Positions 5,802-20,345 of a DNA stretch of 64,000 bases are shown here, in pieces; position 1 is the stretch's first letter; every line of letters begins with the position of its first letter. Origin of the DNA: Candidatus Zhuqueibacterota bacterium (GTDB taxonomy: Bacteria; Zhuqueibacterota; Zhuqueibacteria; Residuimicrobiales; Krinioviventaceae); NCBI GenBank assembly GCA_034521575.1, contig JAXHMJ010000002.1, positions 30,706 to 94,705 on the forward strand, read 5' to 3'. The notes under the pieces were generated by a model, which saw only the letters and a list, made by a program, of their open reading frames with translations, had not been told where the DNA came from and did not search any database. Both the position numbers and the translations under genes were made by a program.

Positions 5802-6257
5802 ATGGACACAGACGTATTATTGCGACGCTATCCCGAGAAAGATGCGTCCGCACTGATCCCGCTGCTTCAGGATATACAGGAAAGTTACGGTTATCTGTCG
5901 GAACCTGATCTGGCCAAAGTGGCCGGTTACTGTGACGTTCCCCTGTCGCGCATATACGGTGTGGCGACTTTTTATAATCAGTTCAGACTGCAGCCTCTGG
6001 GCAAGTATGTGATCCGTGTTTGCCGCGGAACCGCTTGTCATGTTAAAGGTTCGGGTGATTTACTGACCACACTTGAGAATGAACTCGGCATCAAAGCCGG
6101 TGAAACCACCAAGGATTTGAAATTTTCCATCGAAACCGTAGCTTGTATCGGCGCCTGTAGTATTGCGCCGGTGATTGCGATTAATGATGAATTTTACGGA
6201 AAACTGGATAATAAGAAAGTCAAGAAAATACTCAATGATCTAAAGTCTGAGGAGTAA
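5802..6257 (+). CDS. hydC: [FeFe]-hydrogenase NuoE-like [2Fe-2S] subunit (HydC/HndA family), operon 1
   Basis: Thioredoxin-like 2Fe-2S motifs CRGTAC...CIGACSIAPV. GAGAGG RBS. 151 aa. Confidence 0.88.
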   Translation: MDTDVLLRRYPEKDASALIPLLQDIQESYGYLSEPDLAKVAGYCDVPLSRIYGVATFYNQFRLQPLGKYVIRVCRGTACHVKGSGDLLTTLENELGIKAGETTKDLKFSIETVACIGACSIAPVIAINDEFYGKLDNKKVKKILNDLKSEE

Positions 6258-6260
6258 AAC

Positions 6261-8267
6261 GTGCCATTGCAGAATTCATATCAGGAGATTTTCACCAATT
6301 GCTGGCATAGTACGGAAAATCCCTGTCAATTTTTTATAGATTGTGTCAACAACGGACAAAAATGTCATCAGTCCGACGCCAGCGACAAACGACTCGATGC
6401 CTTTAAAAACGAGATTTTGTTAAACCATCATCAACATCCTGTTGTGTTGATCGGCATGGGAACCTGCGGACTTGCCAACGGCGCCGCCAAAGTTTATGAT
6501 GCCTTTAAGCAGCAGATCGATGCCCTCAATCAAAAAATCGATTTGGTGCAGACCGGATGTGTCGGATATTGTGCCAGGGAAGTGATTGTCGATGTAAAAC
6601 TTCCGGGTTCGCACCGGCTAACCTATTGTGAGGTGCAGCCTAAAGATGTTCCGACTATTGTTGAAGAAACACTGCTCAACCACCGGCCTGTGACCGACAA
6701 GCTGCTGGCGTTTCACAATGTCGGCGGCGAGCAAAAGGGCTGGGATCATGTTCTTGAAATGAAAGAAACCCCGTTTTTCAAAAAACAGCAGAAAAACGTA
6801 CTGGAAAACTGCGGCATAATCGATCCGGAAGAAATCGATCAATATTTGGCGCGCGGCGGTTATCAGGGATTATCCAAAGCGCTGTGGCAGCTGGACGCGC
6901 CCGGCGTCATCCAGCAAGTCCTGGACGGCGGTTTGCGCGGCCGCGGCGGCGGCGGTTTTCCCACCGGTAAAAAATGGCAACTCGCCTACAATTCACCCGG
7001 TGAGCAGAAATATGTGGTTTGTAATGCAGACGAAGGCGATCCCGGCGCGTTCATGGACCGAGCGGTGCTGGAAGGCGATCCGCACAAGGTGGTTGAGGGC
7101 ATGATCCTGGCTGCCTATGCGATCGGCGCCAGTGTGGGATATATTTACTGTCGTGCTGAGTATCCGCTGGCCATTCGCCGGCTGGAAAAAACCATCCAGG
7201 ATGCCAAAGCCTATGGACTGCTTGGAAAGAATATACTGGGCAGCGGGTTCAACTTTGAACTCAAGATCAAAAAAGGCGCGGGCGCCTTTGTGTGCGGCGA
7301 AGAAACAGCGCTGCTGCATTCAATTGAAGGCAAGCGGGGTATGCCCCGGCCGCGTCCCCCTTATCCGTCTGATGAAGGCCTGTTCGGCTGTCCTACCATC
7401 ATCAATAACGTGGAAACCTATGCCAATGTACCGGTGCTGATCCGAAACGGCAGCAAATGGTACTCGGATATCGGCACCGAAGGCTCCAAGGGGACCAAAG
7501 TGTTTGCCCTCTCCGGCACGGTCAAAAATGTCGGACTGGTTGAAGTGCCTATGGGTGTGACCCTGCGTGAAATTATTTTCGATATCGGCGGCGGCATTCA
7601 GGATGACAAGCCGTTCAAAGCCGTACAGATCGGCGGTCCGTCCGGCGGCGCATTGCCGGATTCGGTGATCGATACTCCGGTCGATTACGAGTCACTGAAA
7701 AGCATCGGCGCCATGATGGGCTCCGGTGGTCTGGTGGTCATGGACGAGTCCACCTGTATGGTGGATCTGGCCAAATATTTTATGACATTCATCCAGTCCG
7801 AGAGCTGCGGCAAGTGTATACCCTGCCGGGAAGGCACCAAACGGCTTTTGGAAATCCTGGAACGTCTGACCGAGAGTCACCGCAGCGAAAAAACGGTGGA
7901 AGAATCGCTGTTGCGCTTTCAGGGAATGGTTTACCTGGAACGTCTGGCAGATGTGATCAAAAATACCTCGTTATGCGGATTGGGTCAAACCGCAGCCAAC
8001 CCGGTATTGAGTACCCTTAAATATTTCCGGGAAGAGTACGAGTCTCACTTGTACGACCGAAAATGTCCGGCCGGCAGCTGCCGTCAATTGCTGACCTATA
8101 GAATTGATACCGACAAATGTACCGGCTGTACGTTGTGCGCGCGCAAATGTCCGGAAAACGCAATACTCGGAGAGCGCAAAAAAGCTCATTATATCATTGA
8201 TGAGAAATGTATCCGTTGCGACCAATGCCGCGCCAATTGCAAGTTTGATGCTATAGTCGTGGAATAA
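6261..8267 (+). CDS. hydB: [FeFe]-hydrogenase NuoF-like flavoprotein subunit (HydB/HndC family). It has an N-terminal fused HndB-like thioredoxin-like domain, a ~60-aa Cys/His-rich leader, and a C-terminal 2x[4Fe-4S] ferredoxin domain.
   Basis: GTG start 7 nt after a GAGGAG RBS. VLIGMGTCGLANGAAKV (HndB-like). NADH/FMN site GRGGGGFPTGKKW. Fe-S motifs ESCGKCIPCREG, CTGCTLCARKCP and CIRCDQCRANC. Confidence 0.88.
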   Translation: MPLQNSYQEIFTNCWHSTENPCQFFIDCVNNGQKCHQSDASDKRLDAFKNEILLNHHQHPVVLIGMGTCGLANGAAKVYDAFKQQIDALNQKIDLVQTGCVGYCAREVIVDVKLPGSHRLTYCEVQPKDVPTIVEETLLNHRPVTDKLLAFHNVGGEQKGWDHVLEMKETPFFKKQQKNVLENCGIIDPEEIDQYLARGGYQGLSKALWQLDAPGVIQQVLDGGLRGRGGGGFPTGKKWQLAYNSPGEQKYVVCNADEGDPGAFMDRAVLEGDPHKVVEGMILAAYAIGASVGYIYCRAEYPLAIRRLEKTIQDAKAYGLLGKNILGSGFNFELKIKKGAGAFVCGEETALLHSIEGKRGMPRPRPPYPSDEGLFGCPTIINNVETYANVPVLIRNGSKWYSDIGTEGSKGTKVFALSGTVKNVGLVEVPMGVTLREIIFDIGGGIQDDKPFKAVQIGGPSGGALPDSVIDTPVDYESLKSIGAMMGSGGLVVMDESTCMVDLAKYFMTFIQSESCGKCIPCREGTKRLLEILERLTESHRSEKTVEESLLRFQGMVYLERLADVIKNTSLCGLGQTAANPVLSTLKYFREEYESHLYDRKCPAGSCRQLLTYRIDTDKCTGCTLCARKCPENAILGERKKAHYIIDEKCIRCDQCRANCKFDAIVVE

Positions 8268-8281
8268 AACAGAGGAATACA

Positions 8282-9993
8282 ATGAGAATAACGATAAATG
8301 GAAAAGAATGCTGGGCCAATCCCGGAGAAACCATATTAAAAGTGGCTGAGCGGGAAGGTATCAATATCCCCACTCTTTGTTATTTAAAAGGCCTTTCTCC
8401 GACCGGTTCCTGCCGAATCTGTATAGTACAAGTTGACGGCGGCCGGATGGCGCCTTCCTGTGCGTTCCCGGTTTGCGAAGGCATGAACGTGGAAACCAAC
8501 TCTGCCCAAGTGCGCCGGGCGCGAAAAACCATTATTGAATTATTGATTGCCAATCATCCTCAGGATTGTCTGAACTGTGTCCGCAACGGCAACTGTGAAT
8601 TGCAGACGCTTGCCGAGGCTTATGGTGTACGCAGCAAGCGCTACATCGGTGAGCGCCGCAAAGCCAAACTGGATGTGGCGTCTCCGTCGATTGAACGCGA
8701 TCCGGAAAAATGTATTTTGTGCGGCCGCTGTGTGCGCGTTTGTCATGAGGTTCAGGGTGTCGGCGCCATTGATATCGCCAACCGCGGATTTCAGAGTACG
8801 GTGATGCCGGCGTTCAATCACAGTCTGAATACCGTGGCTTGTGTGTTCTGCGGTCAGTGTGTGGTCAATTGTCCCGTAGGCGCGCTGCGCGAAAAAAGCC
8901 ATGTGAAAAAAGTTTGGGAAGCGCTCAATGATCCGGACACGCTGGTGGTTTCACAGATCGCTCCGGCGGTACGTGTGGCTCTGGGTGAAGAGTTTGGACT
9001 GGAACCCGGTACCGTGGTGACCGGCAAAGCGGTGAGCGCGCTGCGCCGCATTGGCATGGATGTGGTGTTTGATACCAATTTCAGCGCCGATCTGACCATC
9101 ATGGAAGAAGCCACGGAACTGGTGTCGCGTCTGCAAAATAACGGCACCATCCCCATGCTGACCTCATGCAGTCCCGGATGGATAAAATATATAGAACATT
9201 TTTATCCCGAACTGCTGGAGCATGTGTCGAGCTGTAAATCCCCGCATCAGATGCAGGGTGCGCTGATCAAATCCTACTGGGCGGAGAAAAGGGAATCGAT
9301 CCGGAAAAGATTTTTGTAGTATCTATTATGCCCTGTACTGCCAAAAAATATGAAGCGCAGCGTCCGGAACTGGGAGATGAGCATCAGGATGTAGATGCGG
9401 TACTGACCACGCGCGAGCTGGCGCAGATGATAAAAACAGCAGGAATCGATTTTACCAGAATAGAAGATGATCATTTCGATGATCCGCTGGGCGAATCCAC
9501 TGGCGCGGCTATTATTTTCGGCGCCACCGGCGGTGTGATGGAAGCGGCGCTGCGAACCGCCCATTACAGCCTGACGGGTACGGAATGCGCTGATATTGAA
9601 TTCAAACCCATCCGCGGTCTGGAAGGCGTGAAGGAGGCTGAGATTAAGATCGACGGCACCGAACTCAGGGTTGCTGCGGTCAACAGTCTCAGCCAGATCA
9701 AATCTCTGCTCGATGATATCCGCGACGGCAAATCGCCGTATCAATTCATTGAAGTGATGGCCTGTCCGGGCGGCTGTATCAACGGCGGCGGTCAGCCACT
9801 GCCCTCGGATGCGGAAAAAACTGAAAAACGTATGCAGTCCATTTACAAGATCGACCGCGGGCTGCCGAAACGCTGTTCGCACCAGAATGAATCAGTGCAA
9901 AGACTGTATCAGGAATTTCTGGAAAAACCGAACAGCCACAAAGCCCACGAACTGCTGCACACACATTACGTCAAACGCACGGAAAGTGTCTAA
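8282..9993 (+). CDS. hydA: [FeFe]-hydrogenase catalytic subunit (HydA, group A multimeric type), operon 1. It is split by an apparent 1-nt deletion near 9283 into 8282..9319 and 9328..9993.
   Basis: N-terminal 2Fe-2S and His-ligated/4Fe-4S ferredoxin modules (CRICIV, HPQDCLNCVRNGNCELQ, CILCGRCVRVC, CVFCGQCVVNCP). H-cluster motifs TSCSPGW (L1, non-canonical), MPCTAKKYE (L2) and EVMACPGGCINGGGQP (L3). Paralog alignment with the 18606 gene shows a missing 't' in 'aaaa(t)ggg'. Confidence 0.85.
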
Positions 9994-10002
9994 TATCATA
10001 TT

Positions 10003-12033
10003 ATGGCTGTTGTCTGGACCATAGAAGAAAAATGCCGGCGCTGCTATTCCTGCGTCCGGGAATGTCCGGCCAAGGCGATCAAGGTTGAACACGGTCAGGC
10101 CAAAGTGATCGAGAACCGATGCCTGGGATGCGGACATTGTGTAAATGTGTGCTCTCAGGGTGCCAAAGAAGTGCTGAACGGCACCCGGGAGGTCATGCAT
10201 TACCTAAAATCGGACAGCGTGATTGCCATGCTGGCGCCGTCGTTTCCGGCTGTTTATCCGGATCTGGATACCCAACAGCTCGTCGGCGCCCTGCGCGCCT
10301 GCGGGTTTGATAAAGTCGTTGAAGTGGCATTCGGCGCGGATCTGGTCAACAAGGCGTATTTGCATCTGCTAAAAGCCCCTGATGATCCGGATATCGAAAC
10401 AATGCTGCCGGTGATTGCATCGTCGTGTCCGGCGATTTTTTCCTATGTTCAGAAATATATACCGGAGCTGGTACCGCATATTGCCCGCATTGTATCGCCG
10501 ATGGTGGCCATGGGACGCGCAGTGAATTATTTATATGGTCAGGACAAACGGGTGGTTTTCATCGGACCCTGCACGGCTAAAAAAGTTGAAATACAGGATG
10601 AACAGGTCAGTGATTCCGTGGATATGGTGCTGACCTTTGCCGAGCTGAACGATCTGTTTCAGTATTATCAAATTGATTTTGATGCTGTTGCCCCCCGGCC
10701 TCTGGATCCGCCGCATGCGTATCTGGGACGCCTGTATCCGGTGTCAGGCGGTTTTCTGCGCAGCGCCGGACTGCCTACGGATCTGATGAATGATGATATT
10801 GTGTTAACCGAGGGCAAAAACCGGGTTCTCAATTTGCTGGATCTGGTGAAGAAAAAGGAAATCGACGCCAAGCTTATTGATGTGCTGTTTTGTGAAGGCT
10901 GTATCAGCGGTCCGTTTTCCAATAAAAGTGAAAATTATTTTGACAGCAAGCGCAACATTGTGCGCTATACCGAGAACCGGCGCAACCAGGCCGATTATCC
11001 GGCCTGGCGGGAAACAATCGAAGACTGTTTGTCCCACGTAAATCTATATCGTTCTTTTAAAGCAGAATCGGTCAATAACCCCGAGCCGACGGAAGAAGAG
11101 ATTTCTGAAATTCTGGCGCGCATTGATAAACATGAAAAATCCGACGAGCTGAACTGCGGCGCCTGCGGCTATTCTTCATGCCGCGAACACGCGGTTGCGG
11201 TTTATCAGGGACTGGCCGAAGCGGATATGTGTCTGCCATTTCTTATCGACAAGATGGAACATATGAAAAATAAACTGCAGGCCTCTCTGGACAAGCTTGC
11301 GACCACGCAGGAGCAGTTGATTCAACATGAAAAACTGGCGTCAATCGGACAGCTGGCGGCCGGAGTCGCGCATGAAGTCAATAATCCGCTCGGTTCAATC
11401 CTGCTGTACGCGCATCTGGTCAAACAGCGAATGGATCAGGCTGAGGACGATGCAAAAGATCTGAGCTTTATTATCGAGGAAGCCAAACGCTGTCAGAACA
11501 TTGTATCCGGTCTGCTTGATTTTTCACGACAGGGACAGCTTACACTCAAACAGAATCATGTACCGGATATTATTTTGAAAATGATTGAGGTGGTCAAAGA
11601 ACAGCCCGAGTTTAAGCATGTCCGAATTCATACGGAATTTGCTGATGATCTGCCCGAGATTTATGTTGATGAGGATCAGCTGTATCAGGTGTTTTTGAAT
11701 ATCACCATGAATGCGGCTGAAGCTATGCCGGAGGGAGGAGACCTGACCATCAAGGCATTTTTGGATGATGACACCAACAAGATGCGCATCACATTCACGG
11801 ACACCGGTGTTGGAATCTCCAAAGACAATCAGAGCAAGGTGTTTACCCCCTTTTTCACCACAAAACAGATCGGCAAGGGAACCGGCCTGGGTCTGGCGAT
11901 CGCCTATGGTATATTAAAAATGCATAAAGGCAATATTCGTGTTAAAAGCGAGGTTGATAAAGGATCTACCTTTATTGTTGATATTCCCCTCGCTTCTAAT
12001 CAAACCATAACCAAAAAGGAGCAAGATGACTAA
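10003..12033 (+). CDS. HydS-like sensory [FeFe]-hydrogenase domain fused to a histidine kinase transmitter (2x[4Fe-4S] ferredoxin + H-domain + Cx2Cx4Cx16C + HisKA + HATPase_c)
   Basis: Ferredoxin motifs CRRCYSCVRECP and CLGCGHCVNVC. H-cluster-like motifs SSCP (L1 with first Cys to Ser), GPCTAKKVE (L2), FCEGCISGP (L3 variant). CGACGYSSC-x16-C. H-box HEVNNPLG. N/G boxes NITMNAAEAM, DTGVGI, GKGTGLGLAIAYG. Start is 10 nt after the hydA stop. Confidence 0.85.
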   Translation: MAVVWTIEEKCRRCYSCVRECPAKAIKVEHGQAKVIENRCLGCGHCVNVCSQGAKEVLNGTREVMHYLKSDSVIAMLAPSFPAVYPDLDTQQLVGALRACGFDKVVEVAFGADLVNKAYLHLLKAPDDPDIETMLPVIASSCPAIFSYVQKYIPELVPHIARIVSPMVAMGRAVNYLYGQDKRVVFIGPCTAKKVEIQDEQVSDSVDMVLTFAELNDLFQYYQIDFDAVAPRPLDPPHAYLGRLYPVSGGFLRSAGLPTDLMNDDIVLTEGKNRVLNLLDLVKKKEIDAKLIDVLFCEGCISGPFSNKSENYFDSKRNIVRYTENRRNQADYPAWRETIEDCLSHVNLYRSFKAESVNNPEPTEEEISEILARIDKHEKSDELNCGACGYSSCREHAVAVYQGLAEADMCLPFLIDKMEHMKNKLQASLDKLATTQEQLIQHEKLASIGQLAAGVAHEVNNPLGSILLYAHLVKQRMDQAEDDAKDLSFIIEEAKRCQNIVSGLLDFSRQGQLTLKQNHVPDIILKMIEVVKEQPEFKHVRIHTEFADDLPEIYVDEDQLYQVFLNITMNAAEAMPEGGDLTIKAFLDDDTNKMRITFTDTGVGISKDNQSKVFTPFFTTKQIGKGTGLGLAIAYGILKMHKGNIRVKSEVDKGSTFIVDIPLASNQTITKKEQDD

Positions 12034-12412
12034 CCATATTTTACTGATCGATGACGACGTCGATTTTGTGGAAATGAATAAAACCTTTTTGGAAACCAAA
12101 GGGTATACGGTAGATACCGCATACAATGGAACCGAAGGGGTGGAGCGCGTCAAAGAATCCGCGCCGAACTTGATCGTTCTGGATGTTATGATGGATCAGG
12201 TGGGGGAAGGATTTGAAGTGGCGCGGACTCTGAAACAGGATGAACAGTATAAACACATTCCCATCATCATGCTCACATCCGTAAACAAGGAACATGGATT
12301 TGATCTGACGGTGGGTGCGGACGAACAATGGAATCCTGTCGATTGCTTTTTAGAGAAACCATTGTCGCCTCAGGATTTATTAGCAAAAGTCAGAGAATTT
12401 TTGTCGGAATAA
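12026..12412 (+). CDS. stand-alone response-regulator receiver (CheY-like, no output domain)
   Basis: LLIDDDVDF...LIVLDVMMD...LTS...K: the Asp pocket and phospho-Asp are conserved. The gene overlaps the sensor-kinase stop. Confidence 0.85.
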   Translation: MTNHILLIDDDVDFVEMNKTFLETKGYTVDTAYNGTEGVERVKESAPNLIVLDVMMDQVGEGFEVARTLKQDEQYKHIPIIMLTSVNKEHGFDLTVGADEQWNPVDCFLEKPLSPQDLLAKVREFLSE

Positions 12413-12823: not shown

Positions 12824-14301
12824 AAATTAAAAACGCCGACATATTGGTTGTGGATGATGAACGCGGTATGCGGGAAGGGATTCAGAGACTGCTGGGCCTG
12901 AAAGGCCTGAATGTGGATACGGCCGAGAGTGGCAGTGAAGGGATTGAAAAAGGCATTTCAAAAGAATATGACCTGTATTTCATTGATCTGAAAATTCCGG
13001 ATATTGAAGGCACCCAGGTGCTGCGTGAGATCAAGCTGGCCTATCCTGAAGCGATTTGTGTGATCCTGACCGCTTATGCGTCCATTGAAACCGCCATTGA
13101 AACCACTCAGCTCGGCGCTTATCAATATATTCCCAAACCGTTTGATCCGGAAGAGCTGCAGAATCTGGTCAACCGGGCGCTCGAAAAACGCTGGTACGTG
13201 CTGGAAGCGCGTCAGCTGCGTGAAGAGCGCGAAAAACGTCTTTTGGAACTGCAGCATGAACAATCGCGGGTCCGCAGTATCGTCAATGCTTTGGATGACG
13301 GGGTGGTGGTGATCAATGTGGACGGCCAGGTGGTGTTTCACAACTCGAGTTTTTTAAAGATGCTCAATGTGCCCAATGATTTTCAGACCGGTGAACAGGT
13401 TTGGGATATTGTGCCGGGAGAACTGCATGACCAGATCAAGGAGGTCATGGCGCAGCAGGATGATTTTCGCGCCATCAAACAGGAAATCACCATCAAACCG
13501 CCGGCTGAACTGGTGCTGATGGCCAACACGACGCCCATTGTTGATACGGATCATGAACTCATCGGTGTGGTATCGGTTTTACGCGATATTTCGGAACTCA
13601 AAAAACTGGACATTTTGAAATCCCAGTTTGTGAATATGGCAGCCCATGAACTCAAGGCGCCCCTGGCTGCCGTTCAGGGATACCTTGATTTGATCATTGA
13701 TCGTTCCCTCGGAGACAATCTTGACAGCTATCAGACCTACCTGGAGCGCTCCCACGACCGCCTCGAAGCTCTTATTTCCATGATCAATGATCTTTTGAAT
13801 ATTTCCAGAATGGAAGCCGGCAAAGTCAGACGTGAAATTGAACAAGTCGATCTGGCCGGTTTGCTTAAAGATAAAATTGAACTGTTTACAAAAGAAATAA
13901 AGCAGAAAAATTTACAACTTGATATTCGTCTGCAGAAAGATTTCATGGTGAAATGCGATCGCGAAGAAATAGAACGCGTTTTTAACAATCTGATCAGCAA
14001 TGCCGTCAAATATAATAAAGAAAACGGTACAATATCGATCAAAGCAGGTAAAGACGGACACTATGCCAAAGTCAGTGTCAGTGATACCGGAATCGGTTTG
14101 CAGCCTGATGAAAAGGACCGGCTGTTTGAAGAATTTTATCGGGCTAAAAACAAGTTTACACGAAAAATCACCGGTACCGGACTGGGTTTGTCTATTGTCA
14201 AACGTATTATAGACGCCAACGCCGGAAAAATCATTGTCGAAAGTGAATTTGAAAAAGGAACAACCTTTACCGTCTTTTTGCCACTGGAAACTGAATACTA
14301 G
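12820..14301 (+). CDS. hybrid sensor kinase: N-terminal REC + PAS + HisKA + HATPase_c
   Basis: REC (ILVVDDERGM...LYFIDLKIPD), PAS-like segment (VVVINVDGQVVFHNSSFLKM), H-box AAHELKAPL, N box NLISNAVKYN, G boxes DTGIGL/GTGLGLSIV. Overlaps the upstream REC stop (ATGA). Confidence 0.85.
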   Translation: MKIKNADILVVDDERGMREGIQRLLGLKGLNVDTAESGSEGIEKGISKEYDLYFIDLKIPDIEGTQVLREIKLAYPEAICVILTAYASIETAIETTQLGAYQYIPKPFDPEELQNLVNRALEKRWYVLEARQLREEREKRLLELQHEQSRVRSIVNALDDGVVVINVDGQVVFHNSSFLKMLNVPNDFQTGEQVWDIVPGELHDQIKEVMAQQDDFRAIKQEITIKPPAELVLMANTTPIVDTDHELIGVVSVLRDISELKKLDILKSQFVNMAAHELKAPLAAVQGYLDLIIDRSLGDNLDSYQTYLERSHDRLEALISMINDLLNISRMEAGKVRREIEQVDLAGLLKDKIELFTKEIKQKNLQLDIRLQKDFMVKCDREEIERVFNNLISNAVKYNKENGTISIKAGKDGHYAKVSVSDTGIGLQPDEKDRLFEEFYRAKNKFTRKITGTGLGLSIVKRIIDANAGKIIVESEFEKGTTFTVFLPLETEY

Positions 14302-14350: not shown

Positions 14351-14692
14351 ATGAAGCTGTCAGAGATTGCTCAGGCTCTCGGTCTGGACATAATCAGCGG
14401 TGAATCGAATCTGGACAAACAAGTGGAATATGGCTATTTGTCTGATATTCTCAGTGATGTGATGTCCAGGGCGCCTAAAGCAGCGATCTGGATCACCAAT
14501 CAAACCCATGAAAATATCCTGGCCCTGGTCTTCTTCAAGGGACTGGCCGGGGTGATCCTGCCGGAAAACATGTCTCTGGAAGAGGCGTCGATTAAAAAAG
14601 CGGAAGAGAAAAATATACCGGTGTTTCGAAGCAATTTGACGGCATTCGATATCGCCGGTCGATTGTACGAGCTGGGTATACGAGGTCAATAA
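14351..14692 (+). CDS. DRTGG-domain protein (hydrogenase-associated small regulator)
   Basis: 113 aa. Sequence LSDILSDVMS...NILALVFFKGLAGVIL is typical of the DRTGG/CBS-associated domain found next to HydABC operons. Confidence 0.6.
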   Translation: MKLSEIAQALGLDIISGESNLDKQVEYGYLSDILSDVMSRAPKAAIWITNQTHENILALVFFKGLAGVILPENMSLEEASIKKAEEKNIPVFRSNLTAFDIAGRLYELGIRGQ

Positions 14693-15444
14693 TGCTCAGT
14701 TGGTACAAAGCGGATTTGCATATCCATACGGTGCTTTCGGCCTGTGCTGAACTCAGCATGGGACCGAAAGATATTGTCCGTAAGAGCCTTGAACAGGGAC
14801 TGGATATCATCGCGATCACCGATCATAATTCCGCTGAAAATATCACGGCCGTCATCAAAGCCGCGGAATCGACCGATTTGCTGGTGCTTCCCGGTATGGA
14901 AGTGTACAGCCGCGACGAGGCGCATATTGTCTGTCTGTTTGAAACCCTGGGTGATGTGCTTGCGTTTCAGCGTATCATCTATGCGGCAGTGGCTGAAGGC
15001 AAATATGATTCAAGTATGTTCGGCGAGCAGATTCTTTGTGATGCGAATGAAAATGTACTCGGTGAAAGCGATCGGCTTTTATCGCTGCCGGTGAATCTGA
15101 ATCTGGATCAGATTGCGGATTATATTGCAGAGTTTAACGGCATTATGATTCCGGCGCATGTGGACCGGCGGTCTCACAGCATCTTGCGGGTGCTGAGTTT
15201 TATGCCGAATAATCTTCCGATTTACGCAATGGAGATCGCGCATTCGTATGAAAAGGCGTGCAAATCTTTCAGTATATTAAAGAACGGCAAGTATTCGGTG
15301 ATCCGCTCTTCGGATGCGCATGATATTGATCAGATTGGCCAAAAGTTTACGTATTTCAAGCTAAAAGAAAAGTCGTTCAGCGAGATACGCAAGGCCCTGC
15401 GTCAGGTGGACGGACGAATGGCATCACTGGACAAGGTGAACTGA
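14692..15444 (+). CDS. PHP-domain (polymerase/histidinol-phosphatase-like) metal-dependent phosphoesterase
   Basis: ADLHIHTVLS...IAITDHNS...HVDRR His/Asp metal-binding motifs. Start overlaps the DRTGG stop (TAATG). Confidence 0.75.
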   Translation: MLSWYKADLHIHTVLSACAELSMGPKDIVRKSLEQGLDIIAITDHNSAENITAVIKAAESTDLLVLPGMEVYSRDEAHIVCLFETLGDVLAFQRIIYAAVAEGKYDSSMFGEQILCDANENVLGESDRLLSLPVNLNLDQIADYIAEFNGIMIPAHVDRRSHSILRVLSFMPNNLPIYAMEIAHSYEKACKSFSILKNGKYSVIRSSDAHDIDQIGQKFTYFKLKEKSFSEIRKALRQVDGRMASLDKVN

Positions 15445-15992
15445 TGCGCGAACTGTCGCTGAACATACTGGATATCATCACCAATTCCATCGAAGCGGAG
15501 GCAAACCGTGTGATTCTGCATATTGATGAAGACAAGGTGGAAAATCGTCTGACTTTTCGGATTCGGGACAACGGCCGCGGCATGAGTCAGGAATTTGTCC
15601 GGCAGGTGATGGATCCGTTTGTCACATCGCGCACCACGCGTCCGGTGGGCATGGGCCTGTCACTGTTGCACCAGCTGGCGCGGCAGGCGCGCGGAGACCT
15701 TGATATTCGATCAGAACTCGGTCAGGGTACGGAGGTCAGTACCTATTTGCGACTGCATTGCCTCAATCGACCGCCTCTGGGTGATGTGGGCGGGACGATT
15801 GTCAATCTGGTGATCAGCAATCTGGATGTGCATTTTATGTACATCCACACAACAGACTATGGACGGCTCTGGTTTGATTCTTACTGGATACTGGCGCGGG
15901 CGGCGGAACAGGATAAAACGCTTTACGATATGATTCATCCGTCTTTGGAACATATCAAAAGCCGGTTGAAAGACATTAATTCGAAAGCATAA
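15444..15992 (+). CDS. GHKL/HATPase_c-type ATP-binding protein (anti-sigma-factor / Ser-kinase-like)
   Basis: NILDIITNSIEA (N-box-like), RIRDNGRGM (G1), GMGLSLL (G2). Overlaps the PHP stop (CTGATG). Confidence 0.7.
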   Translation: MRELSLNILDIITNSIEAEANRVILHIDEDKVENRLTFRIRDNGRGMSQEFVRQVMDPFVTSRTTRPVGMGLSLLHQLARQARGDLDIRSELGQGTEVSTYLRLHCLNRPPLGDVGGTIVNLVISNLDVHFMYIHTTDYGRLWFDSYWILARAAEQDKTLYDMIHPSLEHIKSRLKDINSKA

Positions 15993-16064: not shown

Positions 16065-16427
16065 GTGAAAACACTTGCAGATCTTCGCGCGGTCAAAGAA
16101 CAAGCCAAAAAAGAAATGGCCGCTCGTGAAAAAACAGCAAAGTACCGTGTCTGTGTCGGCATGGGCACATGCGGTATTGCAGCAGGCGCCCGGGATGTGA
16201 TGAGCGCGCTGCTGGACGAAATCAGTAAACGAGGTGTTGAAGACGCGGTGGTCACGCAGACGGGCTGCCAGGGATACTGTGATCAGGAACCGCTGGTACA
16301 GGTGACTCAGCCGGATAAAACTGTCATTTCCTACGGCAAAGTGACGCCCCAGAGCGCCCGTGATATTGTGGCGCAGCATATCATAGAGGGTAACGTGCTC
16401 TCTGATCTGGTGTTTAAACAGGATTAA
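16065..16427 (+). CDS. hndB: HndB-like small thioredoxin-like [2Fe-2S] ferredoxin subunit, operon 2
   Basis: VCVGMGTCGIAAGA...CQGYCDQEP. GTG start after an AAGGAGG RBS. Confidence 0.8.
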   Translation: MKTLADLRAVKEQAKKEMAAREKTAKYRVCVGMGTCGIAAGARDVMSALLDEISKRGVEDAVVTQTGCQGYCDQEPLVQVTQPDKTVISYGKVTPQSARDIVAQHIIEGNVLSDLVFKQD

Positions 16428-16474
16428 GAAGAACAAATCAAGACGTGTATACGCGTTAAACAAGGAGGTTATCA

Positions 16475-16951
16475 ATGCAGAACTTGGATCGAGTGGATGC
16501 GATCGTGAAAAATTATAACGATATGAAAACACCACTCATTTACATTCTCAAGGATGTTCAGAAAGAATACGGATTTCTCTCTGAGGATATTCTGACGCGG
16601 GTCGCACAGAGAACCGATATCCCTCTGAGCAATATCTATGGTGTTGCGACATTTTACAGTCTCTTCACCACAGAAGAAAAGGGCAAATATATCGTTCGCT
16701 GCTGCAACAATGCCCCCTGTCATGTCAAAGGTTCAAAAGATGTTCTGGATGCAATCCAGAATTATCTCGGTGTGCAGGTCAATGAGACCTCACTGGACAA
16801 GACATTTACTCTGGAATTTACCAGCTGTCTCGGATTGTGTGCGGTTGCTCCCGTCATGATGATCAATGACGAGGTATATGGTAATCTGACTCCGGAAAAA
16901 GCAGTGTCAATTTTGAAAGATTATAAAATGAAAGGGCTGTCGAATGCATAG
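16475..16951 (+). CDS. hndA: NuoE-like [2Fe-2S] subunit (HndA/HydC family), operon 2
   Basis: CCNNAPCHVKG...CLGLCAVAPV. Paralogous to 5802..6257. Confidence 0.88.
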   Translation: MQNLDRVDAIVKNYNDMKTPLIYILKDVQKEYGFLSEDILTRVAQRTDIPLSNIYGVATFYSLFTTEEKGKYIVRCCNNAPCHVKGSKDVLDAIQNYLGVQVNETSLDKTFTLEFTSCLGLCAVAPVMMINDEVYGNLTPEKAVSILKDYKMKGLSNA

Positions 16952-18546
16952 ATCACATATACTCATCGCAATGGACGCTCACACGATAGCCCAGGGTGCC
17001 CGTGCCGTCAAGGAGGCTCTCGTGCGTGAGCTTGAAATGGCAAATCTCGGCAATGAGGTCAAGGTTGTTGAAACCGGCAGTCTGGGAATTTACAACAAGG
17101 GCGTGGTTCTGGTTGTGTTTCCGGATGCGGTTTACTATGCCGGTGTCAAGGTGGAAGATGTATCCGAGATTATTTCCGAGCACATTATCAAAGGGCGCAT
17201 TGTCGAACGTCTGCGCTATACCGACGTACCCGAATACAAAGAAGGCGAACAGGGCGAAGCCCCGCGCTTTGGCAAACAGATACGCGTTGTGTTGAAGAAC
17301 GCCGGCAATATTGATCCGGAAAGCATTCAGGAATATATCGCGAATGACGGTTATGAAGCGCTGGGACGTGCATTGACCGAGATGAAACCCGGTGAGGTGC
17401 TGGAAACCGTGAAAAACAGTGAACTGCTGGGACGCGGCGGCGCGTTTTTTCCCACTGGATTGAAATGGAGTTTTGCCGCAGCTGAAAAAAACACGCCCAA
17501 ATATATTGTCTGTAACGCCGATGAAGGCGAACCCGGCACATTTAAAGACCGGTTGATCCTGGAAGGCGATCCGCACCTCATTTTAGAGGGTATGGCACTG
17601 TCCGGATACGCGGTCGGCGCATCCATGGGCTATATTTACATTCGCGGTGAATATAAAATGTCCATTGAACGCATCAACCGCGCCATTGAACAGGCGCGTG
17701 AAAACGGATTGTTGGGCGAAAACCTGTTCGATTCGGATTTTTCTTTTGATATTGAGGTGCGTGAAGGCGCAGGCGCCTATATCTGCGGTGAGGAAACCGC
17801 TTTGATTGAATCGATCGAAGGCAAACGCGGTGAACCGCGTGATAAACCGCCGTTTCCGCCGTCAGAAGGTCTGTGGGGTAAACCCACAATCGTCAATAAT
17901 GTGGAAACTCTGGCCAATATTCCGCCGATTCTGCGCAATGGTCCGGACTGGTTCAAGAAAATGGGAACCGAGAAAAGCCGCGGCACCAAGGTGTTTACCA
18001 TGGTCGGCAATATCAACAATCCCGGATTGATCGAAGTGCCCATGGGCATCACGCTTCGTGAAATCATTTACGATATCGGACATGGCATTCCCAACGGCAA
18101 GGGCTTTAAACTGGCTCAGATGGGCGGCACCACCGGTGGTATTCTGACGGAAGAACACCTGGACATGCCCATGACGGTTGAAAATCTGCGCAGTGTCGGA
18201 GCCGGTCTGGGTTCGGGCGCTCTGCTGGTGGTTGATGAGTCTCAGGATGTGGTTGATCTGGTTCGCAATTTTGTTGAATTTTTCAACCATGAATCCTGCG
18301 GCAAATGTACACTGTGCCGTGAAGGCAACGGTCGACTGCTGCAGCTGCTGGATAAAATCCTGGACGGTCAGGGAACCGTTAAAGATATTGAATTGATGCA
18401 AGAATTTGGCACAGACCATGATGAAAGGCGCGTTCTGCGGCCTGGGTCAGGCCGCTCCCATTCCCGTGCTGGGATGTCTGAACCATTTCAGGAAAGATTT
18501 TCTGGCGGTTGTCCAAACCGCAGCGTCTGAAATTGAAGCTGCCTGA
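16944..18546 (+). CDS. hndC: NuoF-like flavoprotein subunit (HndC/HydB family), operon 2. An apparent 1-nt indel near 18405-18417 moves the last ~40 aa into another frame. It has no fused N-terminal HndB domain and no C-terminal ferredoxin tail.
   Basis: GRGGAFFPTGLKW, HESCGKCTLCREG. Then TMMKGAFCGLGQAAPIPV...AASEIEAA in frame +1, matching the NTSLCGLGQTAANPV tail of the paralog. Confidence 0.85.
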
Positions 18547-18605
18547 GGTCTGTGAAGCAATGTTGAACTGGAACTGTGATAATCATGAATAAACGGAGGT
18601 GTCCT

Positions 18606-20345
18606 GTGGCAAACGTCACCGTAACCATAGACGGCATTCAGCTGAGTGTTCCCCAGGGGACAACAGTCATGGATGCTGCAGAAAAAGCAAAAATACAAAT
18701 TCCACGATTGTGCTATCATCCTGATCTTCCTCCGGTCTCCGCCTGCCGCCTGTGTGTGGTCGAAATTGAAGGCGACCGGCTGTTGAGAACCGCGTGTTCC
18801 TGGAAGTGTCAGGACGGTATGAACATCAAAACACGCACCAAACAGGTGCGCGATTCCCGTAAAATGGCGCTGGAACTGATTCTGTCGCGTCACCCCATGT
18901 TGTGCACCGAATGTGTGCGCAATCAGGATTGCGAACTCCAGAGCATGGCGGAACAGCTGGGTATTCGCGAAACCCGTTTTGAATACTCGGAGCGTCCCGG
19001 TGTAGCCGATCATTCCAGTGAAGCGATTGTTCGCGATCCGGCCAAATGTATCCTGTGCCGCCGTTGTATCCAGACCTGTGAACTGGTGCAGAGCGTCAGC
19101 GCGATCGGCCTGGAAGGCCGCGGCTATGATACCTGGGTGGATACACCGTTCGGCAAAGGCATCGCCGATGTGGCGTGTGTGTCCTGTGGTCAATGTATCG
19201 ACCGCTGTCCGGTCGGCGCCTTGTACGAAAATCCGCATATCCAGCGTGTCTGGGATGCGATTGATGATCCGGAAAAACATGTGGTCATCCAGACGGCTCC
19301 GGCTGTCCGCGCTGCCATTGGCGAAGAGTTCGGTATGGAACCGGGGTCACTGGTCACGGATAAAATGGTGACCGGTCTGCGCATGCTGGGTGTGGACAAG
19401 GTGTTTGATACCAACTTTACCGCGGATCTGACCATTATGGAAGAAGGTCATGAGCTGCTGGGTCGCATCAAAAACGGCGGTACTTTGCCGCTCTTGACCA
19501 GCTGTTCGCCGGGATGGATTAATTTTATCGAGCATTTCTATCCCAGTCTGCTGCCGCACGTGTCCTCCTGTAAATCGCCGCAGCAGATGTTCGGCGCTTT
19601 GGCAAAAACCTATTACGCGGATAAAATGGGTATCAAACCGGAAAATATTTACAGTGTTTCGGTCATGCCCTGCACCGCGAAAAAAGTCGAAGCCGGACGT
19701 CCTGAGATGAACGACAGCGGATTCCAGGATGTGGATGCGGTACTGACCACGCGCGAAGCGGCGTTTATGATGAAACAGGTGGGTATCAATCTACCGGATT
19801 TGCAGCCCGGCGAATATGATGAACCTCTGGGTGTATCAACCGGCGCCGCTGTGATTTTCGGCAACACCGGCGGTGTGATGGAAGCGGCCCTGCGTACCGT
19901 GTATGAAGTGGTGACCGAATCCAAGATCGAAGATGTCAATATCAAAGCCGTACGCGGCATGCAAGGCGTTCGTGAAGCGGAAATCAATCTAAACGGCACC
20001 ATCGTCAAGGGCGCGGTCGCCAACGGACTGGCCAATGCGCGCCAGCTCATGGACAAGATCGTGTCCGGTGAAGCGGATTACCACTTTATCGAGATCATGG
20101 CCTGTCCGGGCGGATGTATCGGCGGCGGCGGTCAGCCGATCCCGACGTCCATGGACATCCGTCAGAAACGTGTGGATGCCATCTATGCGGCGGATGAAAG
20201 TCTCGAAATCCGCAAATCACATGAAAATCCGGCGGTGATCAAACTCTATAAAGAGTTCCTGGGTGAACCGAACGGACATAAATCTCATGAACTGCTGCAC
20301 ACGCATTATACGGAAAAACAGGTCTACAAAGACGTACCTGCTTAA
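18606..20345 (+). CDS. hndD: [FeFe]-hydrogenase catalytic subunit, operon 2 (intact). A GTG start at 18606 is assumed after a GGAGG RBS; an upstream ATG at 18576 is possible.
   Basis: N-terminal ferredoxin modules as in hydA. H-cluster motifs TSCSPGW, MPCTAKKVE and EIMACPGGCIGGGGQP. Confidence 0.88.
   Translation: MANVTVTIDGIQLSVPQGTTVMDAAEKAKIQIPRLCYHPDLPPVSACRLCVVEIEGDRLLRTACSWKCQDGMNIKTRTKQVRDSRKMALELILSRHPMLCTECVRNQDCELQSMAEQLGIRETRFEYSERPGVADHSSEAIVRDPAKCILCRRCIQTCELVQSVSAIGLEGRGYDTWVDTPFGKGIADVACVSCGQCIDRCPVGALYENPHIQRVWDAIDDPEKHVVIQTAPAVRAAIGEEFGMEPGSLVTDKMVTGLRMLGVDKVFDTNFTADLTIMEEGHELLGRIKNGGTLPLLTSCSPGWINFIEHFYPSLLPHVSSCKSPQQMFGALAKTYYADKMGIKPENIYSVSVMPCTAKKVEAGRPEMNDSGFQDVDAVLTTREAAFMMKQVGINLPDLQPGEYDEPLGVSTGAAVIFGNTGGVMEAALRTVYEVVTESKIEDVNIKAVRGMQGVREAEINLNGTIVKGAVANGLANARQLMDKIVSGEADYHFIEIMACPGGCIGGGGQPIPTSMDIRQKRVDAIYAADESLEIRKSHENPAVIKLYKEFLGEPNGHKSHELLHTHYTEKQVYKDVPA

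What the first reader, a model, noticed from the sequence alone, without database searches (positions are those of the whole stretch)
5802..20345. Two differently architected paralogous multimeric [FeFe]-hydrogenase operons in one 15-kb island
Operon 1 (hydC-hydB-hydA) has the HndB-like thioredoxin domain fused to the N-terminus of the NuoF-like subunit. It also has a C-terminal 2x[4Fe-4S] tail on that subunit and an extra Cys/His leader. Operon 2 keeps HndB as a separate gene and lacks the ferredoxin tail (HndABCD-like). Having both forms side by side suggests functional divergence, for example bifurcating versus NADH- or NADPH-only, or H2 production versus uptake, under control of the intervening sensor system. 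It is also a useful natural pair for pinning down which accessory domains enable electron bifurcation.
Basis: partly seen in the sequence, partly recalled or inferred. Interest (0 to 1): 0.5.

Follow-up and report, generated by a model that had tools for sequence, protein, structure and literature searches.

The report
Bifurcating and NADH-only hydrogenase gene pair
An uncultured KSB1 bacterium carries, in one conserved 14.5-kb gene block, a standard electron-bifurcating iron hydrogenase, a putative hydrogen sensor kinase, and a second hydrogenase whose NADH-binding subunit has lost every feature linked to bifurcation; all three kinds of enzyme are already known, and the two broken genes look like sequencing errors.

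Summary
Two HydABC-type [FeFe]-hydrogenase gene sets sit at 5802-9993 and 16065-20345, with a sensor and regulator block between them.

HydB1 (668 aa) has a Cys/His leader, a thioredoxin-like domain, a NuoF core and a 2x[4Fe-4S] tail. HydB2 has no tail, and a separate 120-aa thioredoxin-like gene precedes it.

- hydA1 and hydB2 each carry a homopolymer frameshift. At least six such breaks occur in the 64 kb, and all orthologues are intact, so these are probably assembly errors.
- HydB2 also keeps an N-terminal thioredoxin-like domain, but all four cluster cysteines are replaced.
- An N-terminal thioredoxin fusion is the normal HydB architecture, and real Hnd is itself bifurcating.

By the published Losey 2020 and Schut 2022 criteria, HydB1 is the bifurcating type (A/M/F/GGPSG, all cluster cysteines present). 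HydB2 is the non-bifurcating NADH-only type (T/K/Y/GGTTG, only FMN and one [4Fe-4S]).

The whole block is syntenic in two other genomes checked. HydB1-type and HydB2-type genes appear to share a contig in at least 15 assemblies.

Both enzyme kinds, their co-occurrence in one genome and histidine-kinase-linked sensory hydrogenases are already described. Interest is modest.

The parts
5802..6257 (+). hydC1, NuoE-like [2Fe-2S] subunit (151 aa)
   Evidence: PF01257 E 3e-54. TIGR01958 160.8 bits against a cut-off of 142.4. Four Cys present.
6261..8267 (+). hydB1, bifurcating-type NuoF-like subunit (668 aa). Sub-features: Cys/His leader 6261-6440; thioredoxin-like domain 6441-6710; NuoF core 6822-8054; 2x[4Fe-4S] tail 8088-8264.
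   Evidence: Pfam domains. Residues 61-667 align with NfnB 9n5u_B, 8oh5_B, A. mobile 7t2r_B and A. woodii 7q4v_B. A/M/F/GGPSG signature and all accessory Cys conserved in 120 of 120 homologues. The leader matches NCBIfam NF040902 below threshold (26 bits against 45). 100% identical to MDZ7721751.1 from a KSB1 MAG.
8282..9993 (+). hydA1, [FeFe]-hydrogenase catalytic subunit. Reads as two ORFs because of a -1 frameshift in the A-run at 9287-9290. Corrected product is 570 aa.
   Evidence: Pfam halves of Fe_hyd_lg_C are split between the two ORFs. Frame analysis. The corrected protein scores 883 bits on NF040763. Best solved relative is T. kivui HydA1 8a6t_A, E 3e-206. Orthologues are intact at 567-572 aa.
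10003..12033 (+). hydS-HK, sensory-type [FeFe]-hydrogenase domain fused to a histidine kinase (676 aa)
   Evidence: Domains 2x Fer4, Fe_hyd_lg_C, PF04060 FeS, HisKA and HATPase_c. Motifs ASSCP, GPC and FCEGC against TSCCP, MPC and ACxxGC in T. maritima HydA. Conserved in L001 and L002.
12026..12412 (+). stand-alone response-regulator receiver (128 aa)
   Evidence: PF00072 E 1.5e-20
12431..12823 (+). stand-alone response-regulator receiver (130 aa)
   Evidence: PF00072 E 4.5e-21
12820..14301 (+). hybrid receiver-PAS-HisKA-HATPase kinase (493 aa)
   Evidence: Pfam. Conserved in L001, L002 and L085.
14351..14692 (+). DRTGG-domain protein (113 aa)
   Evidence: PF07085 E 8e-6, 26.0 bits against a cut-off of 25.2
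14692..15444 (+). PHP-domain protein (250 aa)
   Evidence: PF02811 E 1.3e-10
15444..15992 (+). small histidine-kinase-like ATPase (182 aa); probably corresponds to the 'hisK' gene drawn in published HydABC operons (identification inferred)
   Evidence: PF02518 E 2.4e-17. Schut 2022 notes that hisK and hydD are in the operon but not in the holoenzyme.
16065..16427 (+). hydD/hndB-like separate thioredoxin-like ferredoxin (120 aa)
   Evidence: PF01257 E 5e-6. 36% identical to HydB1 residues 62-146. Three Cys conserved in orthologues.
16475..16951 (+). hydC2, NuoE-like [2Fe-2S] subunit (158 aa)
   Evidence: PF01257 E 6e-51. 46% identical to HydC1.
16944..18546 (+). hydB2, non-bifurcating-type NuoF-like subunit. 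Carries a +1 frameshift in the T-run at 18405-18407. Corrected product is 533 aa. Cys-less thioredoxin-like domain at 16947-17228; no ferredoxin tail.
   Evidence: Frame analysis. Full-length homologues of 528-545 aa at 75-83% identity. Aligns with 7t2r_B residues 4-527. T/K/Y/GGTTG signature. N-domain Cys replaced, yet the domain is 70% conserved within its clade.
18606..20345 (+). hydA2, [FeFe]-hydrogenase catalytic subunit (579 aa from GTG 18606 with a GGAGG site upstream; the ORF is open from 18576)
   Evidence: Pfam. NF040763 890 bits against 765. A. woodii HydA1 7q4v_A E 4e-196. Start inferred and the 579-aa orthologues.
20353..20376 (.). G+C-rich palindromic hairpin directly after the hydA2 stop codon; possible terminator of the block
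   Evidence: 9-bp stem with 8 G-C pairs. Function not shown; terminator-like sites overall are at background frequency.

Best explanation
This is a conserved gene block of a candidate-division KSB1 bacterium. It encodes two different NAD-linked [FeFe]-hydrogenases and a putative H2-sensing phosphorelay.

The three modules:
- Operon 1 (hydC1-hydB1-hydA1) is a canonical Bfu/HydABC-type electron-bifurcating or confurcating enzyme. HydB1 carries FMN, the N3-type [4Fe-4S], an N-terminal thioredoxin-like cluster domain, the 3Cys+His hinge site, two C-terminal [4Fe-4S] clusters and an extra Cys4 prefix. It should couple NADH plus reduced ferredoxin to H2, reversibly.
- Operon 2 (hydD-hydC2-hydB2-hydA2) has the gene layout of a tetrameric HydABCD enzyme. 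Its HydB2 has lost the N-terminal cluster, the hinge site and the ferredoxin tail. Its NADH/FMN-site residues are the complex-I-like ones found in the ferredoxin-independent enzymes of Syntrophomonas wolfei and Syntrophus aciditrophicus. It should exchange electrons between NADH and H2 only, so H2 production would be feasible only at very low H2 pressure, or the enzyme would run towards uptake.
- Between them lie HydS-HK (an H-cluster domain with an altered proton relay, fused to a histidine kinase), two receiver proteins and a hybrid kinase. These plausibly report H2 level and set which enzyme is made or active.

What is shown: gene content, domain and cysteine complements, signature residues, synteny, and the position of the frameshifts.

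What is inferred: the cofactors actually bound, bifurcating versus non-bifurcating activity, H2 sensing, and any regulatory link. The two frameshifts are most likely assembly errors.
For: Architecture and cofactor motifs.

Signature residues:
- Losey 2020 criteria: bifurcating = A/E, M, F, GGPSG; non-bifurcating = T/S, K/S/A, Y, other.
- HydB1 and its 120 homologue clusters all read A/M/F/GGPSG. HydB2 and its 120 homologue clusters all read T/K/Y/GGT[TS]G or GGSSG.

Cluster requirements from the literature:
- Schut 2022 states that true Bfu enzymes have five clusters in BfuB and that non-bifurcating homologues lack B2-B5.
- S. wolfei Hyd1B has only one [4Fe-4S] plus FMN.
- The T. maritima hinge Zn site is 3 Cys + His. 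It matches HydB1 C499/H597/C602/C607 and is absent from HydB2.

Phylogeny: HydB1 groups with A. woodii, A. mobile and C. saccharolyticus enzymes (138/200 bootstraps). The HydB2 family is a separate clade (181/200).

Synteny:
- The whole block is conserved in L001 (KSB1 MAG GCA_003854975.1) and L002 (2.45-Mb contig), with intact hydA1 and hydB2.
- Fifteen pairs of B1-type and B2-type proteins share the same longest-contig length, which suggests they share a contig.

Sensor: domain architecture, motif changes, and the HydDB class C1 'histidine kinase-linked'.

Frameshifts as errors: at least six broken conserved genes in 64 kb. The three junctions examined at base level (hydA1, hydB2, sulfatase) lie in homopolymer runs. 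The corrected frames match orthologues.
Against: - There is no biochemical, transcript or cofactor data for this organism.
- By score, HydB2's closest solved relatives are bifurcating enzymes (A. mobile 7t2r_B, A. woodii 7q4v_B). Its sister relationship to the Syntrophomonadaceae-type non-bifurcating HydB has only 41/200 bootstrap support.
- The Losey criteria rest on two characterised non-bifurcating enzymes.
- The separate HydD keeps three conserved Cys and could supply a cluster that HydB2 lost.
- No DNA-binding output domain occurs in the regulator block, and a relative keeps the regulators with operon 2 but has no HydS or operon 1 immediately upstream. A simple picture in which the sensor switches between the two operons is therefore unproven.
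- If the frameshifts are real, this strain would lack an active operon 1 enzyme and would have a damaged HydB2.
Confidence: 0.6

Rival explanations
1. Both enzymes are electron-bifurcating group A3 (Hnd/HydABCD-like) hydrogenases. They differ only in physiological direction or partner. In operon 2 the separate HydD supplies the cluster missing from HydB2, and ferredoxin docks elsewhere, for example on HydA2.
For: - Both HydA subunits belong to the same family and have the same domains.
- HydDB assigns group A subtypes by gene neighbourhood, and both operons have NuoE/NuoF neighbours.
- HydD keeps three conserved Cys.
- HydB2's top solved hits are bifurcating enzymes.
- The Cys-less N-domain is under purifying selection, so it still does something.
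Against: - HydB2 lacks the hinge site and both C-terminal clusters, which the structural work places on the ferredoxin branch.
- It fails all four Losey signature positions.
- Its whole family of 120 clusters is tail-less.
Confidence: 0.15
2. The cluster is decaying. hydA1 and hydB2 are true pseudogenes in this strain, so the apparent pair of enzymes is not functional here.
For: Both genes are interrupted in the sequence as given. No 100%-identical intact copy was found in the protein collection or by DNA scans.
Against: - At least six conserved genes are broken in 64 kb: a sigma-54 activator, sucC, hydA1, hydB2, a DUF1537-type kinase and a sulfatase. The three junctions checked at base level (hydA1, hydB2, sulfatase) are single-base changes in homopolymer runs.
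- There are no other lesions. Apart from the single-base indels, the coding sequence reads through and aligns with orthologues across both sites.
- The source is a 1.17-Mb MAG contig. Contigs of that length often come from long-read assembly, which is prone to homopolymer errors; the sequencing platform was not checked.
Confidence: 0.1
3. Operon 2 is an NADP(H)-specific hydrogenase, the 'NADP-reducing Hnd' of older annotations. The pair would then separate the NADH and NADPH pools.
For: Some sources name homologues 'NADP-reducing hydrogenase subunit HndC'.
Against: - That name is historical. Hnd itself reduces NAD+, not NADP+ (PMC10084766).
- HydB2's nucleotide and flavin-site residues (T, K, Y) are those of NADH-using NuoF-like sequences recovered in the genome scan and of the NADH-dependent S. 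wolfei enzyme.
- No NADPH-specific motif was identified.
Confidence: 0.05

Closest known systems
Electron-bifurcating HydABC / Bfu family (Thermotoga maritima, Acetobacterium woodii, Thermoanaerobacter kivui HydABC; Schut 2022)
   Same: - Operon 1 has the HydC-HydB-HydA order.
- HydB1 aligns over residues 61-667 with solved Bfu B subunits.
- HydB1 has all accessory-cluster cysteines, the 3Cys+His hinge site and the A/M/F/GGPSG signature.
- HydA1 and HydA2 are most similar to T. kivui and A. woodii HydA1.
- Orthologues of HydB1's length class (661 aa) in Ignavibacterium album and Melioribacter roseus are already listed as bifurcating-type.
   Different: - HydB1 has an extra 60-aa Cys4/His leader, absent from the solved enzymes. 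It is only a sub-threshold match to the NCBIfam NuoF prefix domain, and some orthologues lack it.
- HydA1 has no T. maritima-type C-terminal [2Fe-2S] domain; in this it resembles A. woodii.
- Operon 2 does not meet the family's cofactor definition.
[quoted passage not shown]
   Same: - HydB2 has the T/K/Y/non-GGPSG signature and only FMN plus one [4Fe-4S], like S. wolfei Hyd1B.
- HydA2 has the same M3-type cluster complement as Hyd1A.
- Cand. Cloacimonas acidaminovorans HydB (520 aa, T/K/Y/GGAAG, tetrameric-type operon) is a published precedent of similar size.
   Different: - HydB2 is about 125 aa longer than the 402-434-aa enzymes, because it retains a conserved but cysteine-free thioredoxin-like N-domain.
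- The operon also has a separate HydD, and DRTGG, PHP and ATPase genes upstream.
- Clustering with the Syntrophomonadaceae type is weakly supported (41/200).
HndABCD of Solidesulfovibrio (Desulfovibrio) fructosivorans
   Same: Four genes: a small thioredoxin-like protein, a NuoE-like subunit, a NuoF-like subunit and a CpI-like HydA.
   Different: - Hnd is an NAD+-dependent bifurcating enzyme, and its HndB probably has no redox centre.
- HydB2 fails the bifurcating signature and has no ferredoxin tail.
- The gene order here puts the small thioredoxin-like gene before the NuoE-like gene.
Group C1 (histidine-kinase-linked) putative sensory [FeFe]-hydrogenases; HydS of T. maritima and Ruminococcus albus
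   Same: - N-terminal 2x[4Fe-4S], an H-domain with all cluster cysteines, and a C-terminal four-Cys FeS domain.
- The proton-relay Cys is replaced (ASSCP).
- It is located next to HydABC genes.
   Different: - Here the kinase (HisKA + HATPase) is fused directly to the hydrogenase, without an intervening PAS domain.
- It is followed by two receivers and a hybrid kinase, with no DNA-binding output in the block.
- It lies between a bifurcating-type and a non-bifurcating-type operon.

Membership tests
Bfu / electron-bifurcating HydABC (Schut 2022; Losey 2020) | NuoF-like B subunit with an FMN/NADH core and the N3-type [4Fe-4S] | tested here: met
   HydB1 and HydB2 both have Complex1_51K, SLBB and NADH_4Fe-4S domains, and the four N3 Cys.
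Bfu / electron-bifurcating HydABC (Schut 2022; Losey 2020) | Full accessory cluster set in the B subunit: N-terminal thioredoxin-like cluster, 3Cys+His hinge site, and two C-terminal [4Fe-4S] | tested here: met
   This row is for HydB1. C69/C100/C104, C499/H597/C602/C607 and eight ferredoxin Cys are conserved in 119-120 of 120 homologues. This is sequence level only.
Bfu / electron-bifurcating HydABC (Schut 2022; Losey 2020) | The same accessory cluster set, asked of HydB2 | tested here: not met
   The N-domain Cys are replaced by A, T, S and Y. Position 499 is D. The protein ends 36 residues after the last N3 Cys.
Bfu / electron-bifurcating HydABC (Schut 2022; Losey 2020) | Signature residues A/E232, M234, F~312 and GGPSG427-431 (T. 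maritima HydB numbering) | tested here: met
   HydB1 reads A263, M265, F343 and GGPSG458-462, with spacing that matches T. maritima. HydB2 reads T, K, Y and GGTTG, so it does not meet this feature.
Bfu / electron-bifurcating HydABC (Schut 2022; Losey 2020) | Ferredoxin- and NAD-coupled bifurcating activity | not testable with these tools
   Needs purified enzyme.
Non-bifurcating NADH-dependent [FeFe]-hydrogenase (S. wolfei Hyd1ABC type) | B subunit with T/S, K/S/A, Y and no GGPSG | tested here: met
   HydB2 reads T/K/Y/GGTTG, as do all 85 closest clusters. The next 35 read T/K/Y with GGTSG or GGSSG.
Non-bifurcating NADH-dependent [FeFe]-hydrogenase (S. wolfei Hyd1ABC type) | B subunit with only FMN and one [4Fe-4S] | tested here: met
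   The Cys inventory of HydB2 matches the S. wolfei Hyd1B cofactor list. An extra cofactor-less N-domain is present.
Non-bifurcating NADH-dependent [FeFe]-hydrogenase (S. wolfei Hyd1ABC type) | Falls in the non-bifurcating B-subunit clade | tested here: inconclusive
   In the NJ tree HydB2 lies outside the A/M/F clade (138/200). Grouping with the Syntrophomonadaceae and Gelria 405-aa proteins has only 41/200 support. No characterised S. wolfei or S. aciditrophicus sequence was available.
Non-bifurcating NADH-dependent [FeFe]-hydrogenase (S. wolfei Hyd1ABC type) | Ferredoxin-independent NADH:H2 activity | not testable with these tools
   Needs purified enzyme.
HndABCD (S. fructosivorans) | Four-gene set with a small HndB-like protein | tested here: met
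   Genes 16065-20345.
HndABCD (S. fructosivorans) | NuoF-like subunit of the bifurcating type (Hnd bifurcates with NAD+ and ferredoxin) | tested here: not met
   HydB2 fails all bifurcating signatures and has no tail. Hnd properties come from PMC10084766. HndC's own residues were not examined.
Group C1 sensory [FeFe]-hydrogenase (HydDB) | H-domain that keeps the cluster Cys but has an altered proton relay, an accessory C-terminal FeS domain, and a link to a histidine kinase | tested here: met
   Fe_hyd_lg_C E 2e-49, PF04060, HisKA and HATPase_c in one protein. ASSCP against TSCCP, and GPC against MPC. Class definition.
Group C1 sensory [FeFe]-hydrogenase (HydDB) | H2-dependent signalling | not testable with these tools
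   This is putative even for the family itself.
NCBIfam NF040763, NADH-dependent [FeFe] hydrogenase group A6 | Score above the curated cut-off of 765 bits | tested here: met
   HydA2 890.3 bits; corrected HydA1 882.9 bits.
NCBIfam NF040902, CCxxC NuoF prefix domain | Score above the curated cut-off of 45 bits | tested here: not met
   HydB1 residues 12-52 score 26 bits, E 6e-6. The CWH..PC..F..C......C pattern is shared with orthologues, some of which have CCxxC. This is a probable divergent member.

The most novel reading that the evidence does not exclude
HydB2 and its roughly 85 KSB1/Calditrichota-type relatives are secondarily 'de-bifurcated' enzymes. They kept a cluster-free thioredoxin-like domain as a structural or docking module, possibly for the separate HydD. 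The conserved block would then be an H2-pressure-responsive switch: the HydS-histidine kinase phosphorelay selects between a confurcating (NADH + ferredoxin) hydrogenase and an NADH-only one. That would let one organism run both H2-tolerant and H2-sensitive fermentations.
Probability: 0.2. Interest if true: 0.55.

Novelty: new variant of a known kind. Interest (0 to 1): 0.35.

Why it matters
If the prediction holds, a widespread uncultured lineage (KSB1 and relatives, common in anoxic sediments and digesters) would carry two routes for disposing of NADH electrons as H2. One needs ferredoxin and tolerates H2. The other is ferredoxin-independent and works only when partners keep H2 very low. A candidate H2 sensor is encoded between them. 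That bears on how fermenters interact with hydrogen consumers.

It also shows that neighbourhood-based labelling of group A3 hydrogenases as 'bifurcating' would mis-call operon 2.

As a test bed for the mechanism of bifurcation it adds little beyond the characterised enzymes and structures. The practical lesson for this window is that two of the key genes are broken by probable homopolymer errors and must be corrected before any annotation.

Tried and rejected
It was useless for distribution and served only as a source of outgroup sequences.
- Exact-protein look-ups returned nothing for HydC1, P0121, HydS-HK and HydA2. Only hydB1 was found, on a 2.1-kb Logan contig that stops before hydA1.
- Metagenome DNA scans allowing either allele at both frameshift sites gave 0 hits. 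Error versus real mutation could not be settled directly.
- A PDB search with the 60-aa leader gave only chance hits.
- A literature search for the TSCSP motif found nothing relevant.
- The promoter and terminator scan was at background level (25 against 19.6±5.2, and 19 against 17.4±3.9). Transcription units are therefore not defined.
- Horizontally acquired island: no evidence.
- Recent tandem duplication: rejected, because the paired subunits are only 45-53% identical.
- NADPH specificity: no evidence.
- Structure prediction was not run, because the alignments to solved chains already cover all domains.

Full report
**What is in the sequence**

Fourteen genes on the + strand fill 5802-20345. 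Gaps between them are at most 72 nt, and there are five overlaps. Pfam and NCBIfam assign them as follows:
- hydC1, NuoE-like (5802-6257)
- hydB1, NuoF-like, 668 aa (6261-8267)
- hydA1 (8282-9993, read as two ORFs)
- a hydrogenase-histidine kinase fusion (10003-12033)
- two single-domain response regulators (12026-12412 and 12431-12823)
- a receiver-PAS-kinase hybrid (12820-14301)
- DRTGG (14351-14692), PHP (14692-15444) and small ATPase (15444-15992) proteins
- a 120-aa thioredoxin-like protein (16065-16427)
- hydC2 (16475-16951)
- hydB2 (from 16944)
- hydA2 (to 20345)

**Frameshifts**

hydA1 is split because an A-run at 9287-9290 is one base short. Restoring it gives a 570-aa protein.

hydB2 changes frame at a T-run at 18405-18407. 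Removing one T gives a 533-aa protein that ends at 18546.

Both corrected products have the same length as their orthologues, and both read through the junctions in register with them. HydA1 orthologues are 567-572 aa, the best at 93% identity. HydB2 orthologues are 528-545 aa at 75-83% identity.

The same window has further broken conserved genes:
- a sigma-54 activator near 275
- sucC near 1700-1833
- a DUF1537-type kinase near 31640
- a sulfatase at a T6 run near 59875

At least six such lesions in 64 kb point to assembly error rather than six pseudogenes. The three junctions I checked at base level (hydA1, hydB2, sulfatase) lie in homopolymer runs. HydB1 is 100% identical to MDZ7721751.1 from a candidate-division KSB1 MAG with a 1.17-Mb contig. 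I could not prove the error interpretation, because no independent copy of either site was found.

**HydB1**

Residues 61-667 align end to end with solved B subunits of Bfu-type enzymes: NfnB 9n5u_B, 8oh5_B, A. mobile 7t2r_B and A. woodii 7q4v_B, with E-values of 1e-217 to 1e-222. The N-terminal thioredoxin-like fusion and the ferredoxin tail are therefore the standard HydB architecture.

Across its 120 closest homologue clusters (KSB1, Calditrichia, Marinimicrobia, Ignavibacteria, Bacteroidota), these are conserved in 119-120 of 120:
- the eight ferredoxin Cys
- the N3 Cys
- C69/C100/C104
- C499/C602/C607

The last three, together with H597, match the 3Cys+His hinge site described for T. maritima HydB.

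The 60-aa leader is real. The pattern CWH-x5-C-x5-C-x6-C is kept in 83-89 of 120 clusters. It is absent from some, including the orthologue in L002. It is a sub-threshold match to the NCBIfam 'NuoF prefix' domain NF040902 (26 bits against 45), and it has no solved relative.

**HydB2**

After correction it still ends 36 residues after the last N3 cysteine, so there is no ferredoxin tail and no hinge site.

Residues 2-95 align with the thioredoxin-like domain of A. mobile and A. woodii HydB, but the four cluster cysteines are A9, T14, S46 and Y50.

In the 85 closest clusters (KSB1 type) this domain has no cysteine at all. Even so, it is 70% identical on average, against 79% for the core and 44% for the linker. 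It is therefore maintained by selection. The next 35 clusters (Firmicutes type, about 60% identical) keep the four Cys.

Operon 2 has both a fossil fused domain and a separate HydD-like gene. That gene keeps three conserved Cys.

**Bifurcating or not**

Losey et al. 2020 give sequence criteria in T. maritima HydB numbering:
- bifurcating: A/E232, M234, F~312, GGPSG427-431
- NADH-only: T/S, K/S/A, Y, and another pentapeptide

HydB1 and all 120 of its homologues read A/M/F/GGPSG. HydB2 and all 120 of its homologues read T/K/Y with GGTTG, GGTSG or GGSSG.

Schut et al. 2022 define the Bfu family by five clusters in BfuB plus one in BfuC. They note that the characterised non-bifurcating homologues lack B2-B5. 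S. wolfei Hyd1B has just FMN and one [4Fe-4S]. That is exactly the complement left in HydB2.

I built a neighbour-joining tree on 400 core columns. It places HydB1 with the experimentally bifurcating enzymes (138/200 bootstraps for that clade, which also includes a cyanobacterial HoxF). The HydB2 family forms its own clade (181/200). Its apparent sister relation to 405-aa Syntrophomonadaceae and Gelria proteins is weak (41/200).

Both HydA subunits pass the same NCBIfam model (NF040763, 'NADH-dependent [FeFe] hydrogenase, group A6') and have the same domains. They are 53% identical to each other. The HydB pair is 45% identical and the HydC pair 46%. These are old paralogues or separate acquisitions, not a recent duplication.

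**Sensor and regulators**

The 676-aa protein has these parts in order:
- two N-terminal [4Fe-4S] motifs
- an H-cluster domain
- a four-Cys FeS domain (PF04060)
- HisKA and HATPase domains

Against T. maritima HydA it reads ASSCP for TSCCP and GPC for MPC. The proton-relay Cys and a neighbouring Met are changed, while the cluster ligands remain. This fits the HydDB class C1, 'histidine kinase-linked (putative)' sensor.

No DNA-binding output domain is present in the block. Consensus promoter and terminator matches are at background frequency. The only notable element is a strong hairpin right after hydA2.

**Conservation elsewhere**

The complete order is found in a KSB1 MAG (L001) and on a 2.45-Mb contig (L002). 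That order is HydB1, HydA1, HydS-HK, RR, RR, hybrid kinase, DRTGG, PHP, ATPase, HydD, HydC2, HydB2, HydA2. In L001 a 71-aa gene without a Pfam hit sits in the DRTGG position.

A more distant relative (L085/L086) has the regulators and operon 2 but no HydS or operon 1 immediately upstream, within the few kb of contig held. A Firmicutes-type homologue has only the four-gene operon. The regulators therefore seem tied to operon 2. The tail-less T/K/Y HydB with a HydD partner is a widespread unit in its own right.

**Comparison with the literature**

Losey's tables already list:
- 661-aa A/M/F HydB proteins in Ignavibacterium album and Melioribacter roseus (the HydB1 size class)
- a 409-aa T/K/Y protein in I. 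album
- several genomes that hold both kinds
- one 'tetrameric' operon whose 520-aa HydB is T/K/Y, in Cand. Cloacimonas acidaminovorans

I found no paper in the held library that describes this KSB1 block. A metatranscriptomic study does report KSB1 coupling H2-tolerant and H2-sensitive catabolism in digesters. That is compatible with, but does not show, a two-hydrogenase strategy.

**Verdict**

The functional guess, bifurcating versus NADH-only, is supported by published sequence criteria. The Hnd label, the NADPH alternative and sensor control are not supported or remain untested.

The parts are members of known kinds. The variant features are the cysteine-free thioredoxin-like domain of HydB2 and the conserved linkage of both enzyme types with a HydS-kinase. 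Interest is modest (0.35).

Noticed in passing
window ~275, ~1700-1833, 9287-9290, 18405-18407, ~31640, ~59875: At least six conserved genes are interrupted by single-base frameshifts: a sigma-54 activator, sucC, hydA1, hydB2, a DUF1537-type kinase and a sulfatase. The three junctions checked at base level (hydA1, hydB2, sulfatase) are in homopolymer runs. The assembly appears to carry about one indel error per 10 kb, so any gene call in this window needs frame checking.
   Followed up: partly
window 9140-9160 (HydA1) and 19470-19490 (HydA2), approximate; motif L1 of both proteins: Both catalytic subunits read TSCSPGW where CpI and T. maritima HydA read TSCCPxW. The solved, active A. woodii HydA1 (7q4v_A) has the same TSCSPGW. 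A literature search for the motif found nothing.
   Followed up: partly
HydB2 family, HydB1 numbering C499/C602/C607 (window HydB2 residue D at the first position): About half of the KSB1-type HydB2 relatives (the 542-545-aa forms) and nearly all Firmicutes-type ones keep the three Cys of the hinge metal site although they lack the ferredoxin tail. The window's 533-aa subclade has lost them too. Loss of the accessory sites seems to have been stepwise.
   Followed up: partly
window 6261-6440 and orthologues P0146, P0198, P0209, P0216, P0225: The Cys4/His leader of HydB1 is conserved in most FCB-group orthologues, and some have a CCxxC start. It is completely replaced by Cys-free sequence of the same length in Marinimicrobia and in the L002 genome, which still has the whole two-operon block.
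   Followed up: partly
L085 4562-13062 and L086: A relative at 66% HydB2 identity carries a response regulator, a hybrid kinase, DRTGG, PHP, an ATPase, HydD, an extra response regulator, and HydC, HydB and HydA. No HydS-kinase and no operon 1 lie immediately upstream, and the 1.3-kb upstream gap has no hydS remnant.
   Followed up: yes
window 1-20000 versus 20001-64000: G+C is about 0.49-0.53 up to about 20 kb and 0.39-0.46 afterwards. The high-G+C part starts before the hydrogenase genes (sigma-54 activator, sucCD, NUDIX, ABC-F), so it does not delimit a hydrogenase island.
   Followed up: no
window 20599-62408: Downstream is a long same-strand run that looks like a glycan-utilisation region. 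It holds a LacI regulator, a T9SS-tailed protein, a TonB-dependent receptor, sulfatases, two BT_1020-like beta-propeller/sialidase-CBM proteins (33690-35663 and 45474-47432), Fe-ADH, DHDPS-family, cupin, FAA-hydrolase and GDSL-lipase genes.
   Followed up: no
window 30033-32274: One stop-free frame contains a complete PdxA domain followed by the N-terminal domain of a DUF1537-type sugar-acid kinase. The kinase C-domain is in another frame. This may be a real PdxA-kinase fusion or another frameshift artefact.
   Followed up: no
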